DNA of 37,501 bases from Thermoplasmata archaeon (GCA_030044475.1 JASHVP010000086.1:1-37501); one strand, 5' to 3'; shown: positions 4,281 through 33,333, counted from the stretch's first letter. Program-made: numbers and translations. The notes: a model not told the origin generated them from the letters alone.

Positions 4281-4718
4281 GTGTCGCTGCGCGGCTACCG
4301 TCCGTCCGACATGCCGTTCGTGGCCGCGATCGTCGCCGAGGCGCTCCACGAACACTACGAGCCGTCCCTCTACAGTTCCCTCTCCGCCGAGTGGCCGGAC
4401 GGGTTCCTCCTCGCGGCGGATGCCCGGGACGTCCCGGTCGGGTTCCTTCTCGGGGTCAACCAGGTCGAGCGGGAGGCGCGCGTGCTCATGTTCGCCGTCG
4501 ACCGGAACCTGCGCACGCATGGCGTCGGAGCCCTGCTCATGGATGCCTTCCTCGACCGGTGCCGGCAACGAGGGTACCGCCGGGCGACGCTCGAGGTGCG
4601 GGTGTCGAACGCGACGGCGATCCGGTTCTACACGCGCTACCAGTTCTCGGTGATCGACCTTCTGCGCTCGTACTATTCGGACGGCGAGAACGGGTACCAG
4701 ATGGCCCGTGACCTCTGA
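4281..4718 (+). CDS. GNAT N-acetyltransferase, RimI/archaeal Nat-like
   Basis: The acetyl-CoA binding block is RNLRTHGVGALLMDAFLDRCRQRGYRRATLEVRVSNATAIRFYTRYQF (the Q/RxxGxG/A motif). Two in-frame GTG starts exist, at 4215 (17-nt overlap with the PAC2 gene) and 4281. I list 4281 because it gives a typical ~145-aa RimI size. Confidence 0.75.
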   Translation: MSLRGYRPSDMPFVAAIVAEALHEHYEPSLYSSLSAEWPDGFLLAADARDVPVGFLLGVNQVEREARVLMFAVDRNLRTHGVGALLMDAFLDRCRQRGYRRATLEVRVSNATAIRFYTRYQFSVIDLLRSYYSDGENGYQMARDL

Positions 4719-4765: not shown

Positions 4766-6010
4766 ATGCCTGCCGCGTGGCCGTCCGCCGCCGATTTGAT
4801 GACGTCGCGTCCGGTGACGCTCCCGCACGACGCGCCGATCTCCCGGGCGCTCGGCCTGATGCGCACGCACGGGTTCCACGAGATCCCGGTCCTGCGCCGC
4901 TCGCGGCTCGTCGGTCTGCTCACGATCGAGTCGATCGCGCGCCGGGTCTCGCGCGCGCTGACGACCAAGGTTGAGCACCTGCTCATCCTTCCGCCGATGA
5001 TCGTCCCGACGGCGACGCTCCCGGAGGTCGCCGAGCAGCTGCTCGCGACCGGGCTGCGCGCCGCGCCGGTCGTCGGACGCCGGGGCGAGCTGCTCGGCAT
5101 CGTCAGCCGGACCGACCTCGTCCGGGCGTTGCCGGACCTCCCGCAGGTCGCGGGACCGAACACGCCTCCGGTCGAGACGATCGCCGGTCCCGCGGCCCAC
5201 ATCGTGCGCGAGGACGACCTGTGCCGCAAGCTGGTCGCGCAGATCCGGAGCCTGGAGGAGCACCCGTTCCCGGTCGTCGATCGGCGGGGGCGGCTCGTCG
5301 GGGCCGTCGGCGTGAAGGACCTCGGCGGGGTCCTCTGGCGTCCCACGACCCCGGGGAAGCGGGACGCGAAAGCGACCCGATCCGCCCTGGACGTCGAGGT
5401 CGCATCGATCATGCACTCCCCGGCCCTGACCGTCCCGGCGGGTACCAGCGCCGCCGAGGCGGCGCGCCGGATGTCGGAGGAGAACGTCTCGAGCGTGTTC
5501 GTCGTGGAGGACGGACGGCCGACCCGGGTCCTCGGCCAGGCCGACCTGCTCGGCCTCGTCGTGGGCCGGTCCCGCCCGGCGAAGGGGCGCGCCCGGGTGG
5601 AGGACGTCTACGTCGAGATCACCGGCCTGCGCGGGTCGGGGGACCCCGCGTTGCTCGCGGAGATCGACCACCTGGTCGCGCGGGGCCTCCGGCGGGTCGC
5701 GCGGTACGTCCGCCCGACGTTCTTCTCCCTCCACGTGGCCCCCCACGCCACCCATCGGACCAACGACCTGACCGTCGAGGCCCGCCTTCACACCGACTCG
5801 GGGATCTACTACGCGTCGCACACCGGCTGGAACCTGCTCGCCGGGGTCTCGGGCCTGCTGGACGAGCTCACCGCGCAGACGATGCGGTCCCGGGAGGCGA
5901 GCCGGGACCGCGGCCGACGGTCCCGGCGGACCCGCGAGGCGGACGAGACGGAGCCGGTCGACCCCGACCTCGAGGAACGGATCCGCGTCGCCACCGGCGC
6001 GGACGAGTGA
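4766..6010 (+). CDS. Four-CBS-domain (two Bateman modules) protein with a C-terminal RaiA/HPF-like domain and a basic/acidic tail
   Basis: 414 aa with an ATG start. Four CBS repeats are recognisable (..MTSRPVTLPHDAPI..; ..MIVPTATLPEV..; ..HIVREDDLCRKL..; ..IMHSPALTVPAGTS..). The C-terminal ~95 aa (VYVEITGLRGSGDPALLAEIDHLVARGLRRVARYV...LTVEARLHTDSGIYYASHTGWNLLAGVSGLLDELTAQ) follow the beta-alpha-beta-beta-beta-alpha pattern of RaiA/YfiA by eye. Confidence 0.8.
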   Translation: MPAAWPSAADLMTSRPVTLPHDAPISRALGLMRTHGFHEIPVLRRSRLVGLLTIESIARRVSRALTTKVEHLLILPPMIVPTATLPEVAEQLLATGLRAAPVVGRRGELLGIVSRTDLVRALPDLPQVAGPNTPPVETIAGPAAHIVREDDLCRKLVAQIRSLEEHPFPVVDRRGRLVGAVGVKDLGGVLWRPTTPGKRDAKATRSALDVEVASIMHSPALTVPAGTSAAEAARRMSEENVSSVFVVEDGRPTRVLGQADLLGLVVGRSRPAKGRARVEDVYVEITGLRGSGDPALLAEIDHLVARGLRRVARYVRPTFFSLHVAPHATHRTNDLTVEARLHTDSGIYYASHTGWNLLAGVSGLLDELTAQTMRSREASRDRGRRSRRTREADETEPVDPDLEERIRVATGADE

Positions 6011-6018
6011 GGCCGACG

Positions 6019-6405
6019 ATGCTCCCCGGGGGCCCGCGGAACCAACGCCAGATGGAGCAGATGATGCGCCGGCTCGGCATGTCGAGCGAGGCGCTGCCGG
6101 GGGTCGAGGAGGTCGTGATCCGGACGCCGACGAAGGAGCACGTGTTCCGCGCCCCGGAGGTCACCGTCCTGACCATCCAGGGAGTCCGGACGTACCAGGT
6201 CGTGGGCACCCCCGAGGTCCGGCCCCGCGGCGCGGGCCCGTCGGCGTCGGCCCCCGCCGCCCCGACCGGTCCGCCGGACGAGGACGTCCGCCTGGTCATG
6301 GAGCAAGCGAACGTCGCGCGCGAGGAAGCGGTGGAGGCCCTGGCCGCCGCGCACGGGGAGCCGGCCGAGGCGATCCTCCAGATCCTGACCCGACGGGGGA
6401 GCTGA
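6019..6405 (+). CDS. nac: Nascent polypeptide-associated complex protein (archaeal NAC, NAC domain + UBA domain)
   Basis: 128 aa. MLPGGPRNQRQMEQMMRRLGM is the typical archaeal NAC N-terminus, followed by a NAC beta-barrel (EEVVIRTPTKEHVFRAPEVTVLTIQGVRTYQV). The C-terminal UBA is DEDVRLVMEQANVAREEAVEALAAAHGEPAEAI. An SD-like GTGAGG (6007-6012) precedes the ATG. Confidence 0.9.
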   Translation: MLPGGPRNQRQMEQMMRRLGMSSEALPGVEEVVIRTPTKEHVFRAPEVTVLTIQGVRTYQVVGTPEVRPRGAGPSASAPAAPTGPPDEDVRLVMEQANVAREEAVEALAAAHGEPAEAILQILTRRGS

Positions 6406-6482: not shown

Positions 6483-7172
6483 ATGCCCGACGCGTGTCCG
6501 GATTGCGGCGCCGAGGTCGCCTTCGAGGTCCGAGCCGCCCAGGTCCGAACCGGCACCTGCGCGGCGTGCCACCACGCCTTCGCGATCGTCGGCAGCTCGG
6601 AGGAGTTCGTTCCGGAGGGCGGTCTCGCGCCGCCGCGGGCGGAGTCCGCTCCCGCCCCGTCCGGCGGACCGGAGTGCGAGGAGTGCGGCGGACCGTTGGT
6701 CATCCGGTCGACGCTCGACGGTGGTCTGGAGGCGACCTGCTCGACCTGCGAGACCCGGGCGGTCTTCGTTCCGGCCGAGGCCGTCGCGCGAGCCCCCGCG
6801 AACGACCGACGCCCGCCCCGGGGCCCGCGACCGGACCGCCCCGGGTCGCCGTACGGCCGCCCGGCGCGCCCGTGCCGCGAGTGCGGCGGCCCACTCCGGT
6901 TTTCCACGGATCCCGAGGGTCGGGTGGTGGGCGAGTGCGGTTCCTGCGGGAACCGATTCGTCCTTCCGCCCCGGCGGGAGGAGAGTCCCCGCGGACCGCC
7001 CCGATTCGTCTCCCGACCCGGCGGCGGCTACGCGACTCGCTATCCGCGGGACCGGCCGCGGACCGCCGGGGGGCCCCGCCGCGGCCGTCCGCGGTACGAC
7101 CGCCGGAGCGGCGAGGACGACGAGGACGACGACCGGCGCGAGCGCCGTCGCCCCCGCCGCCGCGAGTACTGA
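6483..7172 (+). CDS. Uncharacterised protein with three tandem zinc-ribbon modules and an Arg/Gly/Pro-rich, then acidic, tail
   Basis: There are three CxxC...CxxC units: CPDC..CAAC, CEEC..CSTC and CREC..CGSC, each followed by a xFxxVP strand. Third-position GC is very high in this frame. ATG 6483 is preferred over the upstream in-frame GTG 6459 because a TAAT box at 6447-6450 lies 33 nt upstream. Confidence 0.6.
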   Translation: MPDACPDCGAEVAFEVRAAQVRTGTCAACHHAFAIVGSSEEFVPEGGLAPPRAESAPAPSGGPECEECGGPLVIRSTLDGGLEATCSTCETRAVFVPAEAVARAPANDRRPPRGPRPDRPGSPYGRPARPCRECGGPLRFSTDPEGRVVGECGSCGNRFVLPPRREESPRGPPRFVSRPGGGYATRYPRDRPRTAGGPRRGRPRYDRRSGEDDEDDDRRERRRPRRREY

Positions 7173-8285: not shown

Positions 8286-8690
8286 ATGCGGCTCGCCCCC
8301 GTGGCCGCCCTCGCCGCCGCCGTGGCGGGGGCCGTGCTGATCGGGGACTCGGTCGCGCGCGGCGGCGCGCAGTTGACGCTGGTCCTGATCGTCCCGATCG
8401 TCGCCGGCCACTCGGTCGAGTTTCTGGGGGGAGTGGCCCTTCTCGTCGGGGGCGTGCTCGCGACCCCGCTCTCGCTCTCCAGAGACCCCGCGCCGGAGCC
8501 CCCGCCGTCCCCCGGCCCGACCTCGGCATCGACCGGATCGAGGGGGGCCGGCGGCCTCGTCCTCCTCGGACCGGTTCCGGTCTTCTTCGGGAATTGGCGC
8601 GGGGTCTCGCGACGCACGCGCTGGGCCGTGGCCGCCGCCGGGGTCGCCCTTACCGGGGCGGTCGTCCTCGCGTGGTGGATCGCACGGTAG
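8286..8690 (+). CDS. Small multi-pass membrane protein (DUF131/TIGR00304-like)
   Basis: 134 aa with three or four hydrophobic segments. GGLVLLGPVPVFFGN resembles the GGxxxIGPIPIxxG motif of archaeal DUF131 proteins, recalled from memory. The 3' end overlaps the convergent pdxT by ~40 nt. Confidence 0.5.
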   Translation: MRLAPVAALAAAVAGAVLIGDSVARGGAQLTLVLIVPIVAGHSVEFLGGVALLVGGVLATPLSLSRDPAPEPPPSPGPTSASTGSRGAGGLVLLGPVPVFFGNWRGVSRRTRWAVAAAGVALTGAVVLAWWIAR

Positions 8691-21644: not shown

Positions 21645-21995
21645 GTGCCGTTTCGCCTCGAAAGTATCGAGGAAGCGGACACAGAGTTTCTAGCACTGCC
21701 TCCCGAAATCCGCGAGGTTTTCATTGCGGCGTTCCGAGAGATCGCTGTCGGCGATTCGCCGATCGCCCATGGGCCGGAGTGGTACTGCTCAGAGCTGCGG
21801 CAGCGACAGCGGGTGGCGACAGAAGGCCTGTTCTCGCTCCACGTCGGCGATCTCTGGAGAGGGGTCTACTTCCGACGCGGCGAGACCCTTATCTTCATCG
21901 CGTTCGGTTTCCGACTACCCGAGTTCTACGACAAGCTCCAGCGGCTGCGGAAGGCCATGACGGCGCTAGGCGAAACCCGAGGAAAGCTACCCTGA
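21645..21995 (+). CDS. RelE/ParE-superfamily toxin (HigB/Gp49-like)
   Basis: 116 aa from GTG 21645, which is preceded by GAGGA at 21636-21640. The core GLFSLHVGDLWRGVYFRRGETLIFIAFGFR fits the gLfElR...yRviYf..g..ivll.gF signature of the family. Confidence 0.55.
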   Translation: MPFRLESIEEADTEFLALPPEIREVFIAAFREIAVGDSPIAHGPEWYCSELRQRQRVATEGLFSLHVGDLWRGVYFRRGETLIFIAFGFRLPEFYDKLQRLRKAMTALGETRGKLP

Positions 21996-22086
21996 CTCTC
22001 CCTCCGGTTTAGCAGCCGTACCCCGCTCGACGCAAGGGTTCCCTCGCGGGGCTCCTGCGCCCTCTCCGGCAGGGCTTTGAACCCTT

Positions 22087-22376: not shown

Positions 22377-22868
22377 TCAGACTCCGTGCTGGTCCACGAA
22401 TCGGTTCAACTTCTCGAAACTTCGAATGAGCACCCGGATTTCGTCGGGCTCGAGGACCGAAACGAATCCGGTGACGATCGCCTCGTATCGCCGCCTTGCC
22501 GCAGAAAACAGCTTCCTGCCGGCCGGAGTCATCCGGATGTTCACTACCCTTCGGTCCGAGGAATCTCTCACCCTGCGGACCAGGCCCTTCGTTTCCATTG
22601 CGTCGATGATAGCCGTGACTGCGGCCTTCGTGACGAGGTTTTCGTCGCTCAGCCGGACCATCGGAAGCGGGCCCGATTCCGACAGCTGTTGGAGCACCGC
22701 GAATTCGGTCAGTCTCAGATCGGGCATCCCGAAAGTCTTGTCAAAGTAGTGGGGCCACTTCCTGCTGGCCACGTTCATCGCGCGAAAAGCCGCCGCGGGA
22801 CTGATCGGGGTCTCTTCCCTCGGCCTTCCCTCCTCGGCGCTTGAGGGTACCCGTCGGCGGGTTGGCAT
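22377..22868 (-). CDS. MarR-family transcriptional regulator
   Basis: 163 aa with an ATG start; the internal ATG at 22778 is an alternative. The winged HTH reads LTEFAVLQQLSESGPLPMVRLSDENLVTKAAVTAIIDAMETKGLVRRVRDSSDRRVVNIRMTPAGRKL. Confidence 0.85.
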   Translation of the reverse strand: MPTRRRVPSSAEEGRPREETPISPAAAFRAMNVASRKWPHYFDKTFGMPDLRLTEFAVLQQLSESGPLPMVRLSDENLVTKAAVTAIIDAMETKGLVRRVRDSSDRRVVNIRMTPAGRKLFSAARRRYEAIVTGFVSVLEPDEIRVLIRSFEKLNRFVDQHGV

Positions 22869-33042: not shown

Positions 33043-33048
33043 TAAATA
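33043..33048 (+). promoter_or_regulatory. TATA box (TAAATA) for the initiator tRNA gene
   Basis: This is the only A/T-rich hexamer in the 55-nt spacer, and it ends 25 nt upstream of tRNA position 1 (33073). That is the classical archaeal spacing. Confidence 0.45.
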
Positions 33049-33072: not shown

Positions 33073-33177
33073 AGCGGGGTAGGGTAGTCAGGAAAGCGGC
33101 CGAACGCACGCCGGTCGTCCTGAAATCCCGACGGGCTCATAACCCGTAGATCCATGGTTCAAATCCATGCCCCGCTA
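33073..33177 (+). tRNA. Initiator tRNA-Met (CAT) interrupted by a 30-nt intron in the D-loop
   Basis: 105 nt. Acceptor AGCGGGG/CCCCGCT with A1:T72 and discriminator A. Anticodon arm ACGGG-CTCATAA-CCCGT has three consecutive G:C pairs, an initiator hallmark. T-arm is CATGG-TTCAAAT-CCATG. The D-arm GGGT-AGTCAGGAAA-[30 nt]-TCCC is interrupted, and removing 30 nt (e.g. 33095-33124) gives a normal 75-nt tRNA. Confidence 0.8.
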
Positions 33178-33333
33178 TGTTCCTGGCGGGTCTGGGGATC
33201 CACACGCCCGGCACCGCCAAACTGCGGCAAACCCGTGGGATCCCCCGTCCACGGTCCCGCGCGCCCCCTCGGCGCCGGGGCTCCGGACGACCGGGAACCC
33301 CCCGACGATCCCGTCCGGAAGGCCGGCGGCGAC

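What the first reader, a model, noticed from the sequence alone, without database searches (positions are those of the whole stretch)
33073..33177. Initiator tRNA-Met with a 30-nt intron in the D-loop, held in a BHB-like (HBh') fold with identical AAA bulges
The gene has all initiator hallmarks (A1:U72 and three G:C pairs closing the anticodon stem around CAU), but 30 extra nt lie between D-loop ...AGTCAGGAAA and the 3' D-stem TCCC. I can fold a splicing motif as follows. Exon CAGG (33089-33092) pairs with intron CCTG (33119-33122) as a 4-bp central helix. A 3-nt AAA bulge (33093-33095) follows on the 5' strand. Next is a 7-bp inner helix, 33096-33102 with 33112-33118 (two G:U pairs), capped by a 9-nt loop. 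A second AAA (33123-33125) on the 3' strand lies directly before exon TCCC. On both strands the order is central helix then bulge, as in a true bulge-helix-bulge. The outer helix is not continuous, because TAGT is unpaired opposite the second bulge, so the motif is relaxed. Because both bulges are AAA, any symmetric cleavage yields the same mature ...CAGGAAATCCC. Non-canonical intron positions are best known from Thermoproteota and some DPANN lineages. One in the essential initiator tRNA of a Thermoplasmatota-like genome implies a splicing endonuclease with relaxed specificity.
Basis: seen in the sequence. Interest (0 to 1): 0.6.

Follow-up and report, generated by a model that had tools for sequence, protein, structure and literature searches.

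The report
Initiator tRNA gene with D-loop intron
This is the organism's only start-codon (initiator) methionine tRNA gene, interrupted in its D-loop by a 30-base protein-spliced intron that is conserved across a whole genus of soil archaea whose single splicing enzyme lacks every feature so far linked to cutting such misplaced introns.

Summary
Confirmed. Window 33073-33177 (+) is an archaeal initiator tRNA-Met(CAU) gene. It carries a 30-nt intron (33095-33124) between D-loop positions 20a and 21.

- **Splice junction.** Removing the intron gives a 75-nt tRNA. That product matches uninterrupted genes in sister genera end to end at 97% identity.
- **Fold.** There is no contiguous outer helix, so the motif is relaxed HBh'. 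Only 4e-6 of shuffled introns match this.
- **Conservation.** At least 100 distinct copies occur in soil Thermoplasmata (Lutacidiplasmatales-like). All 9 inner-helix pairs covary. Other lineages show a compensating CAGG/CCTG to TAGG/CCTA change.
- **Expression and need.** A TATA box is conserved at -29 to -25. None of 121 genus genomes has an intron-less copy, so the gene must be spliced.
- **Genome context.** At least 10 further non-canonical introns were mapped (at least 9 in T-loops, 1 in a D-loop).
- **Enzymes.** The genome has RtcB and one two-unit EndA. The EndA is closest to the M. kandleri fused enzyme and to A. fulgidus alpha'2. It has none of the L1/L2/L3 specificity loops.

The kind of intron is known; the closest case is M. 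kandleri tRNA-Glu 20b/21. The host tRNA, the lineage and the loop-less enzyme are the new points. This scan had already found the same gene in other genomes.

The parts
33043..33048 (+). TATA-like promoter box (TAAATA), 25-30 nt upstream of tRNA position 1
   Evidence: Seen in sequence. Positions -29 to -25 are 91-100% A/T in 108 distinct orthologous flanks that are otherwise about 80% G+C.
33073..33094 (+). 5' exon, tRNA positions 1-20a: acceptor AGCGGGG, U8 A9, D-stem GGG(U), D-loop AGUCAGGAA. The boundary can slide within the AAA without changing the product.
   Evidence: Invariant in 100 distinct orthologues.
33089..33092 (+). Central helix H, exon strand (CAGG = C17 A17a G18 G19)
   Evidence: Pairs with 33119-33122. 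99% of cells paired across 100 sequences. TAGG/CCTA in other lineages is a compensatory change.
33093..33095 (+). 5' bulge AAA, with the predicted 5' cut after 33094
   Evidence: AAA in 96 of 103 distinct genes.
33095..33124 (+). 30-nt intron at position 20a/21
   Evidence: Its removal yields a 75-nt tRNA that is 97% identical over 75/75 nt to uninterrupted genes of sister genera. The modal length in relatives is 28 nt.
33096..33118 (+). Inner hairpin h': 7-bp stem (33096-33102 with 33112-33118, two G:U pairs) and a 9-nt loop (33103-33111)
   Evidence: MFE fold. All 9 aligned pairs of the family's inner helix change on both sides. 0 of 500 shuffles reach the observed covariation, and 97.7% of cells are paired against 34-48% when the partner is slid.
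33119..33122 (+). Central helix H, intron strand (CCTG)
   Evidence: Conserved in 96 of 100 distinct sequences although it is intronic.
33123..33125 (+). 3' 'bulge' AAA, with the predicted 3' cut after 33124. It lies in a 4x4 internal loop opposite U13-A14-G15-U16, not in a closed 3-nt bulge.
   Evidence: The outer helix scored 0 contiguous pairs in my motif scan.
33125..33177 (+). 3' exon, tRNA positions 21-73: D-stem 3' strand, anticodon arm with CAT at 33138-33140, T-arm CATGG/TTCAAAT/CCATG, acceptor CCCCGCT, discriminator A. No CCA is encoded.

Best explanation
The gene encodes the cell's single initiator tRNA-Met and is transcribed from its own TATA-box promoter as a precursor carrying a 30-nt intron between D-loop nucleotides 20a and 21.

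In the precursor, D-loop nucleotides C17-G19 pair with the intron's 3' end (CCTG). This forms the 4-bp central helix of a relaxed bulge-helix-bulge motif (HBh'). The 5' splice site sits in a proper 3-nt AAA bulge between that helix and a covarying inner hairpin. The 3' splice site sits in a second AAA, placed symmetrically but facing unpaired D-arm nucleotides.

The homodimer of the genome's single two-unit splicing endonuclease (EndA) cuts after the second A of each AAA. RtcB then joins the exons to give the 75-nt tRNA ...CAGGAA-AUCCC....

- Shown here: the gene, the motif, its conservation and covariation, the exact junction (from uninterrupted orthologues), the absence of a backup gene, and the presence of EndA and RtcB.
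- Inferred: that EndA itself makes both cuts, and the exact cut positions within the AAA runs.
For: - The sequence and fold are as described, and chance is about 4e-6.
That gave 103 distinct sequences, 90 of them with the exact frame CAGG/AAA/.../CCTG/AAA.
- Exons are invariant while the intron hairpin varies with compensation. 9 of 9 pairs change on both sides, and 0 of 500 shuffles reach the score. RNAalifold finds the same hairpin.
- The central helix changes from C:G to U:A (CAGG/CCTG to TAGG/CCTA) in other Thermoplasmata families.
- Sister genera g21 and g23 have uninterrupted 75-nt genes matching the in-silico spliced product over 1-75 at 97%. Sister families do likewise.
- No intron-less copy was found in 121 genus genomes, 42 of them high quality. 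The pattern was validated on known intron-less genes.
- The TATA box is conserved.
- EndA is a single gene with two tRNA_int_endo units. It is present as exactly one such gene in 39 of 40 genus genomes. RtcB is present.
- The same cut geometry fits this genome's canonical Tyr and Leu introns and at least 10 other non-canonical introns (plus C25 seen).
- Precedent: the M. kandleri pre-tRNA-Glu HBh' intron at 20b/21 (PMC5829648).
Against: - There is no RNA evidence.
- In published assays the A. fulgidus alpha'2 EndA hardly cleaved a D-loop BHB intron (PMC3241643). Both it and the loop-less M. kandleri enzyme, which are the two closest structures to this EndA, removed a relaxed D-loop HBh' intron inefficiently (PMC5829648).
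- This EndA has none of the L1/L2/L3 loops.
- A possible U16:A pair would lengthen the central helix to 5 bp in the free RNA.
Confidence: 0.85

Rival explanations
1. It is a true intron that is removed, but the loop-less EndA dimer alone cannot make the 3' cut. An accessory protein, a modification-dependent refolding of the D-arm, or another nuclease completes the reaction.
For: - AFU alpha'2 and fused M. kandleri EndA cut mainly at the bulge of an HBh' D-loop intron and leave the other site largely uncut (PMC5829648).
- This EndA is structurally closest to exactly those two enzymes and has no specificity loop.
Against: - No candidate factor was identified.
- The 4-bp spacing and the AAA at the 3' site are conserved as if read by the symmetric EndA dimer.
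- PMC8707768 states that homodimeric enzymes can cleave BHL-like motifs, so the literature is not unanimous.
- In-vitro inefficiency need not mean in-vivo failure.
Confidence: 0.1
2. The 30 nt are not removed. The mature initiator tRNA keeps an enlarged D-arm hairpin.
For: No spliced RNA has been observed. A recent preprint on Asgard tRNAs notes that some D-arm insertions may not be introns at all.
Against: - The insert sequesters G18-G19, which are needed for the D-loop/T-loop interaction, in the CAGG/CCTG helix.
- Its ends keep the exact BHB spacing: 4 bp flanked by 3-nt bulges.
- Sister genera use an uninterrupted, 97%-identical 75-nt tRNA.
- The intronic CCTG and AA are conserved while the hairpin sequence drifts.
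Confidence: 0.03
3. It is a decaying pseudogene disrupted by a chance insertion.
For: Standard tRNA finders do not call it.
Against: - The exons are invariant in at least 100 distinct copies.
- It is the only initiator gene in 121 genomes.
- The promoter is conserved.
- The insert shows covariation.
Confidence: 0.01

Closest known systems
Methanopyrus kandleri pre-tRNA-Glu(UUC) D-loop intron at 20b/21, relaxed HBh' motif, in an organism whose EndA lacks the specific loop (Kaneta et al. 2018, PMC5829648)
   Same: - Same place, immediately 5' of nucleotide 21 in the D-loop.
- Same relaxed HBh' architecture: one true bulge, a 4-bp helix, an inner helix and no closed outer helix.
- The host enzyme lacks L1/L2/L3.
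- The fused M. kandleri enzyme (5X89) is the best sequence and structure match of this EndA.
   Different: - Here the host is the single, essential initiator tRNA.
- The enzyme is naturally one polypeptide.
- The organism is a GC-rich soil or peat lineage described from acidic soils (PMC9287336), not a hyperthermophile.
- The intron is one of at least 11 non-canonical introns mapped in the genome (plus C25) rather than a lone exception.
- It is conserved over more than 100 species.
Non-canonical BHB/HBh'/BHL tRNA introns of Thermoproteales and other Crenarchaeota, cut by (alpha-beta)2 EndA with the Crenarchaea-specific loop (Hirata et al. 2011, PMC3241643; Yoshihisa 2014, PMC4090602)
   Same: Protein-spliced introns at D-loop, T-loop and other positions, with relaxed motifs, and many per genome.
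   Different: Those hosts have a heterotetrameric enzyme with the lysine-bearing CSL. This EndA has an unexpanded beta3-beta4 turn (RVGDR against AFU EKGDL), modelled as a two-residue turn.
ARMAN-2 (Ca. Micrarchaeum) non-canonical introns, e.g. pre-tRNA-Cys 59/60, cut by epsilon2 EndA with the ASL loop (PMC3239211, PMC3488258)
   Same: T-loop 59/60 introns like those in at least 9 other tRNAs of this genome, in an acid-environment lineage.
   Different: The ARMAN-2 enzyme has three units and the ASL (L2) and L3 loops. The enzyme here has two units and no such loops.
Disrupted initiator tRNA genes elsewhere: the permuted tRNA-iMet of Thermofilum pendens (PMC4090602), and canonical 37/38 introns in iMet of other Thermoplasmata families seen here
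   Same: They show that the essential initiator tRNA can be encoded by a gene that needs EndA processing.
   Different: The topology (permuted) or the position (37/38: L039, L041, L047-L049, L055) differs.

Membership tests
Archaeal initiator tRNA-Met | A1:U72 pair, CAU anticodon, three consecutive G:C pairs (29-31:39-41) closing the anticodon stem | tested here: met
   Read from the sequence and from the ARAGORN drawing of the spliced form. It is distinct from the G1:C72 elongator tRNA-Met on C41 and C186.
Archaeal initiator tRNA-Met | Orthology to uninterrupted initiator tRNA genes | tested here: met
   97% identity over 75/75 nt to genes in sister genera, and near-identity to those of sister families.
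Archaeal protein-spliced (BHB-type) tRNA intron | Removal restores a canonical cloverleaf of normal length | tested here: met
Archaeal protein-spliced (BHB-type) tRNA intron | 4-bp central helix with a 3-nt bulge 3' of it on each strand, and splice sites symmetric | tested here: met
   CAGG/CCTG 4/4, AAA and AAA. There is a compensatory change to TAGG/CCTA in other lineages.
Archaeal protein-spliced (BHB-type) tRNA intron | Inner helix h' adjoining the 5' bulge | tested here: met
   7 bp here and up to 9-11 bp in relatives. 9 of 9 pairs covary.
Strict hBHBh' motif | Outer helix h directly closing the 3' bulge | tested here: not met
   U16 opposite U22 is a mismatch. The D-stem (G10-G12:C23-C25) is separated by a 4x4 internal loop, and my scan scored 0 contiguous outer pairs. 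The motif is therefore the relaxed HBh' form.
Archaeal protein-spliced (BHB-type) tRNA intron | Host encodes the splicing endonuclease and the RtcB ligase | tested here: met
   EndA on G000:C145. RtcB on G000:C87, 571 bits.
Archaeal protein-spliced (BHB-type) tRNA intron | Spliced tRNA and excised intron observed in RNA | not testable with these tools
Broad-specificity EndA (carrying L1/CSL, L2/ASL or L3) | Lys-bearing insertion in the beta3-beta4 turn of the catalytic unit (AFU E174-L178 site) | tested here: not met
   YGSRVGDRLELSL aligns without a gap to AFU YGSEKGDLVTLSL and M. jannaschii YGNVEGNFLSLSL. The length is the same in five orthologues. The AF2 model has strands 205-207 and 210-213 joined by a 2-residue turn. 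The site definition comes from PMC3241643 and PMC3488258.
Broad-specificity EndA (carrying L1/CSL, L2/ASL or L3) | L3: expanded, positively charged loop between the catalytic Tyr and His | tested here: not met
   Seven residues (PRNPEHA) separate Tyr and His. That is shorter than in the M. jannaschii and A. fulgidus enzymes in the alignments. In ARMAN-2 the span is Y236 to H251.
alpha'2-type (two-unit homodimeric) EndA | One polypeptide with an N-terminal structural unit and a C-terminal catalytic unit (Tyr/His/Lys) | tested here: met
   - Pfam finds two tRNA_int_endo and two tRNA_int_endo_N stretches.
- The protein aligns full length with 1R0V/2GJW.
- TM-scores are 0.86 to 5X89 and 0.77-0.79 to AFU structures.
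- Y284, H292 and K323 are invariant.
- Dimerisation itself was not tested.

The most novel reading that the evidence does not exclude
The Lutacidiplasmatales-type two-unit EndA is a genuinely broad-specificity enzyme. It would reach that breadth without any of the three known specificity loops. Candidate determinants are its full-length, beta-subunit-like N-terminal unit or the arginines flanking the beta3-beta4 turn. If so, the accepted rule that disrupted tRNA genes track a loop-bearing EndA fails for a large euryarchaeal class, and a fourth route to relaxed intron recognition exists.
Probability: 0.4. Interest if true: 0.6.

Novelty: new member of a known kind. Interest (0 to 1): 0.45.

Why it matters
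Reviews and biochemical papers hold that Euryarchaeota with alpha4 or alpha'2 endonucleases carry only canonical-position strict-BHB introns. They also hold that relaxed or misplaced introns need an EndA with a special loop (PMC4090602, PMC5829648, PMC3241643).

This case puts that model under test:
- A whole genus of more than 100 species depends for translation initiation on splicing a relaxed D-loop intron.
- The genome has at least 10 more non-canonical introns.
- Its only EndA is a loop-less two-unit enzyme.

That makes a clean experiment possible: one recombinant protein and one 105-nt transcript.

There is also a practical consequence. ARAGORN and the Rfam tRNA model miss this gene and about a quarter of the genome's tRNAs. 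MAG quality checks and tRNA complements for soil Thermoplasmata are therefore likely underestimates.

Tried and rejected
- ARAGORN with intron mode (-i) gave mostly spurious kilobase 'introns' and mislabelled this locus as tRNA-Pro with a 167-nt intron. I discarded it.
- An exhaustive delete-and-rescan with ARAGORN localised the inserts but was too permissive to fix junctions.
- My first motif-plus-cloverleaf script timed out. The rewritten version worked.
- Low-scoring Rfam hits near the gene (Guanidine-II 17.7 bits, miRNA and snoRNA models) are all far below gathering scores and were treated as chance.
- I considered a strict hBHBh' fold through alternative outer pairings (U16:U22, G15:C23 and others). 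No contiguous helix forms.
- I considered the RNAalifold register (U16:A ... G19:C). It gives a 4-nt bulge and loses the 4-bp/3-nt symmetry, and U16 is C in other lineages, so I rejected it.
- tRNAscan-SE was not available.
- Literature searches for any description of tRNA introns in Lutacidiplasmatales, Thermoplasmatota or Methanomassiliicoccales found none.
- tRNA-Glu on C64 and C89 could not be resolved. On C64 the gene runs off the contig end.

Full report
**1. The observation**

- AGCGGGG ... CCCCGCT form a 7-bp acceptor stem with A1:U72.
- The anticodon arm is ACGGG-CTCATAA-CCCGT, with CAT at 33138-33140 and three G:C pairs next to the loop.
- The T-arm is CATGG-TTCAAAT-CCATG.
- Thirty extra nucleotides lie between the D-loop ...AGTCAGGAA(A) and the D-stem 3' strand TCCC.

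ARAGORN and the Rfam tRNA model do not call the gene at default settings. With permissive settings Rfam gives a partial 26-bit hit, below its 29-bit gathering score. Deleting 33095-33124 gives a 75-nt sequence that ARAGORN draws as a normal tRNA-Met(CAU).

The unconstrained minimum-energy fold of the 105-nt precursor (-47.8 kcal/mol) contains the cloverleaf. It also contains CAGG:CCTG, an AAA bulge and the 7-bp hairpin with a 9-nt loop. Only 4e-6 of 500,000 shuffles of the intron give a 4/4 central helix plus an inner helix of at least 7 bp at this junction.

**2. It is a conserved, functional gene**

*Distribution.* The window lies on contig C30 of a 1.67-Mb, 71% G+C, 74%-complete MAG.
- The full interrupted gene is present in 35 of 36 genus genomes first searched, at 87-95% identity.
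- Nearly all are 'Thermoplasmata archaeon' MAGs from soils and peat. They include the AcS/SubAcS genomes and one labelled Ca. Lutacidiplasmatales.
- The published description of that order (about 69% G+C, about 2 Mb, acidic soils; PMC9287336) fits this genome and says nothing about tRNA introns.

*Covariation.* Of 103 distinct sequences, 90 have exactly CAGG / AAA / hairpin / CCTG / AAA, and the modal intron length is 28 nt. In an alignment of 100 distinct sequences:
- the exons are essentially invariant;
- all 9 inner-helix pairs show changes on both sides;
- 97.7% of cells are paired, against 34-48% when partners are slid;
- 0 of 500 shuffles reach the observed covariation;
- RNAalifold recovers the same hairpin.

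The intronic strand of the central helix (CCTG) and the intronic A's of the 3' AAA are conserved, although the hairpin drifts. In other Thermoplasmata families the frame is TAGG/CCTA, a compensatory C:G to U:A change in the central helix itself.

*Promoter.* A TATA-like box (TAAATA, 33043-33048) lies 25-30 nt upstream. Positions -29 to -25 are 91-100% A/T in 108 distinct flanks that are otherwise about 80% G+C.

**3. The junction is right and there is no backup gene**

- Sister families of the same order have uninterrupted 74-75-nt initiator genes whose D-loops read ...GTAGTTAGGAAATCCC or ...GTAGCCAGGAAATCCC.
- Sister genera of the same family (g21, g23) have a 75-nt gene that matches my in-silico spliced product over all 75 positions at 97% identity.
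- A pattern for an intron-less initiator gene finds nothing in 121 genomes of the genus, 42 of them at least 90% complete. The same pattern finds the known intron-less genes in my control loci.
- In G000 the only other CAU tRNA is an elongator type with G1:C72.

The interrupted gene is therefore the sole initiator tRNA gene. Pseudogene and 'spare copy' readings are excluded.

**4. Anatomy and likely mechanism**

The arrangement on both strands is central helix, then 3-nt bulge. My motif scan assumed this geometry, and it also fits the canonical 37/38 introns of this genome's tRNA-Tyr and tRNA-Leu(UAA).
- With cuts after the second bulge nucleotide, the 5' exon ends at A20a (33094) and the 3' exon starts at A21 (33125).
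- Because both bulges are AAA, any symmetric choice gives the same product.
- The 5' site is a textbook bulge between H and h'.
- The 3' AAA is not closed by an outer helix. U13-A14-G15-U16 faces A-A-A-U22, a 4x4 internal loop between C17:G and G12:C23.

This is the relaxed HBh' form, at the same place as the M. kandleri pre-tRNA-Glu intron at 20b/21 (PMC5829648).

In this clade a U16:A pair could extend H to 5 bp in the free RNA. Position 16 is C in other lineages with the same intron site, so that pair is not part of the conserved motif.

**5. The enzymes**

G000 encodes RtcB (571 bits) and one EndA gene on contig C145.
- *Architecture.* It is a 346-aa protein with two tRNA_int_endo units. 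Thirty-nine of 40 genus genomes at least 85% complete have exactly this one two-unit gene.
- *Relatives.* It aligns full length with A. fulgidus alpha'2 EndA. Its best match is the engineered beta-alpha fusion of M. kandleri. A confident AlphaFold model (pLDDT 90.5) gives the same ranking: TM 0.86 to 5X89, 0.77-0.79 to AFU structures and 0.63 to Thermoplasma acidophilum.
- *L1 and L2.* The literature places these at the beta3-beta4 turn (AFU E174-L178, 'EKGDL') (PMC3241643, PMC3488258). Here the turn is the same length (YGSRVGDRLELSL) and is modelled as a two-residue turn.
- *L3.* This is an expansion between the catalytic Tyr and His. Here the Tyr-His spacer is only 7 residues, and the catalytic unit aligns with the loop-less M. 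jannaschii enzyme with a single 2-residue gap.
- *Sister lineages.* Orthologues from lineages with and without the D-loop intron are collinear.

So the enzyme shows none of the known determinants of relaxed specificity.

*Published assays.* Wild-type AFU EndA 'hardly cleaved' a D-loop BHB intron. AFU and fused M. kandleri EndA removed the D-loop HBh' intron inefficiently, cutting mainly at the true bulge. One paper states instead that homodimeric enzymes can cut BHL-like motifs (PMC8707768), so the literature is not unanimous.

My best reading (0.85) is that the intron is spliced by the EndA/RtcB pathway. Whether EndA alone suffices for the 3' cut is the open step; the rival reading carries 0.10.

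**6. Context in the genome and the class**

The initiator is not a lone exception. A strict cloverleaf-plus-motif scan of weak tRNA hits found further introns in G000.

| Position | tRNAs | Features |
|---|---|---|
| T-loop, ~59/60 | Asn-GUU, Ser-GCU, Ser-GGA, Ser-CGA, Ala-GGC, Asp-GUC, Arg-UCG, Gln-CUG; one more on C25 seen by eye | 26-34 nt; the T-stem serves as the outer helix |
| D-loop | Arg-GCG | HBh' motif |
| Canonical 37/38 | Tyr, Leu-UAA | |

Across the class (151 genomes at least 80% complete) the D-loop-interrupted initiator occurs in 6 of 27 families sampled.
- In this organism's family it is found only in its own genus: 11 of 12 genomes, against 0 of 5 in four sister genera.
- Each lineage has a different intron sequence at the same site.
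- Some lineages add a second intron in the T-loop.
- Other families have a 37/38 intron in the initiator instead.
- A few Asgard MAGs also match the D-loop pattern.

This patchiness fits repeated gain, or an old intron with many losses. I cannot tell which.

**7. Comparison and novelty**

The kind of element is known: a relaxed BHB-type, protein-spliced tRNA intron at a non-canonical position. The closest precedent is M. kandleri tRNA-Glu 20b/21 with its loop-less enzyme. Three points are new relative to the literature I could search:
- the host is the single essential initiator tRNA;
- the lineage is soil Thermoplasmata, described in reviews as having only canonical introns;
- the scale is genus-wide, with about a quarter of the genome's tRNA genes affected, combined with a two-unit EndA lacking all known specificity loops.

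I rate it a new member of a known kind.

This scan has already followed up the same interrupted initiator gene on other genomes (e1-720042, e1-1495277), and many related T-loop and D-loop introns in Thermoplasmata. I reached my conclusions before reading those notes, and they agree.

**8. Limits**

- tRNAscan-SE was unavailable.
- EndA dimerisation and activity are inferred from homology.
- The genome is 74% complete, so the intron census is a minimum.

Noticed in passing
outside the window: G000 contigs C41:~8450-8560, C132:~4780-4900, C160:~6200-6310, C131:~2830-2950, C136:~2640-2760, C127:~4340-4440, C177:~22590-22690, C70:~6960-7070, C25:~5260-5390: At least nine other tRNA genes of this genome carry a 26-34-nt intron in the T-loop (~59/60) with the T-stem as outer helix: Asn-GUU, Ser-GCU, Ala-GGC, Ser-GGA, Ser-CGA, Asp-GUC, Arg-UCG, Gln-CUG, and one on C25. 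ARAGORN and Rfam miss or mis-size most of them.
   Followed up: partly
outside the window: G000:C138:~21930-22045 (-): tRNA-Arg(GCG) has a 34-nt D-loop intron (junction after nt 17) with a 4/4 central helix, a 6-bp inner helix and no outer helix. It is a second HBh' D-loop intron in the same genome.
   Followed up: partly
L068, L092, L104, L129, L135, L152 (other Thermoplasmata and Methanomassiliicoccales-labelled MAGs): The initiator tRNA genes there carry two introns. One is the D-loop intron, framed TAGG/AAA...CCTA/AAA. The other interrupts the T-loop after GGTTCAAA.
   Followed up: partly
L067 (Hodarchaeota MAG), L102 (Promethearchaeota MAG), L118 (Hermodarchaeota MAG): Asgard MAGs also matched the pattern for an initiator tRNA with a D-loop insert. 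In L067 a second insert follows CTCATAA, at the 37/38 position.
   Followed up: no
L087 (JASIAO010000353.1, labelled Acidobacteriaceae bacterium) and L063 (labelled Methanobacteriota archaeon): These MAG contigs carry this Thermoplasmata-type archaeal initiator tRNA gene. For the 3-kb contig in the bacterial MAG this probably reflects a binning error.
   Followed up: no
outside the window: G000 C41/C186 (elongator tRNA-Met), C47/C49 (tRNA-Arg CCU), C64/C89 (tRNA-Glu CUC): Identical or near-identical tRNA genes sit on pairs of separate contigs. This suggests redundant contigs or strain variants in the MAG despite its 0.04% contamination estimate. G034 and G169 likewise hold two initiator copies on separate contigs.
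   Followed up: no
L177:671-1711 (G000:C145), residues ~95-125 of the EndA: The N-terminal, structural unit of this EndA keeps a full-length pseudo-catalytic loop (F-x-V-x-PRGG...KTPS..W) that is deleted in the A. fulgidus enzyme. It is conserved across the class and makes the protein look like a natural beta-alpha fusion (best match M. kandleri 5X89).
   Followed up: partly
window 33279-33326 (+): There is a weak Guanidine-II riboswitch-like hit (17.7 bits against a gathering score of 32) about 100 nt downstream of the tRNA. It is most likely chance in G+C-rich sequence.
   Followed up: no
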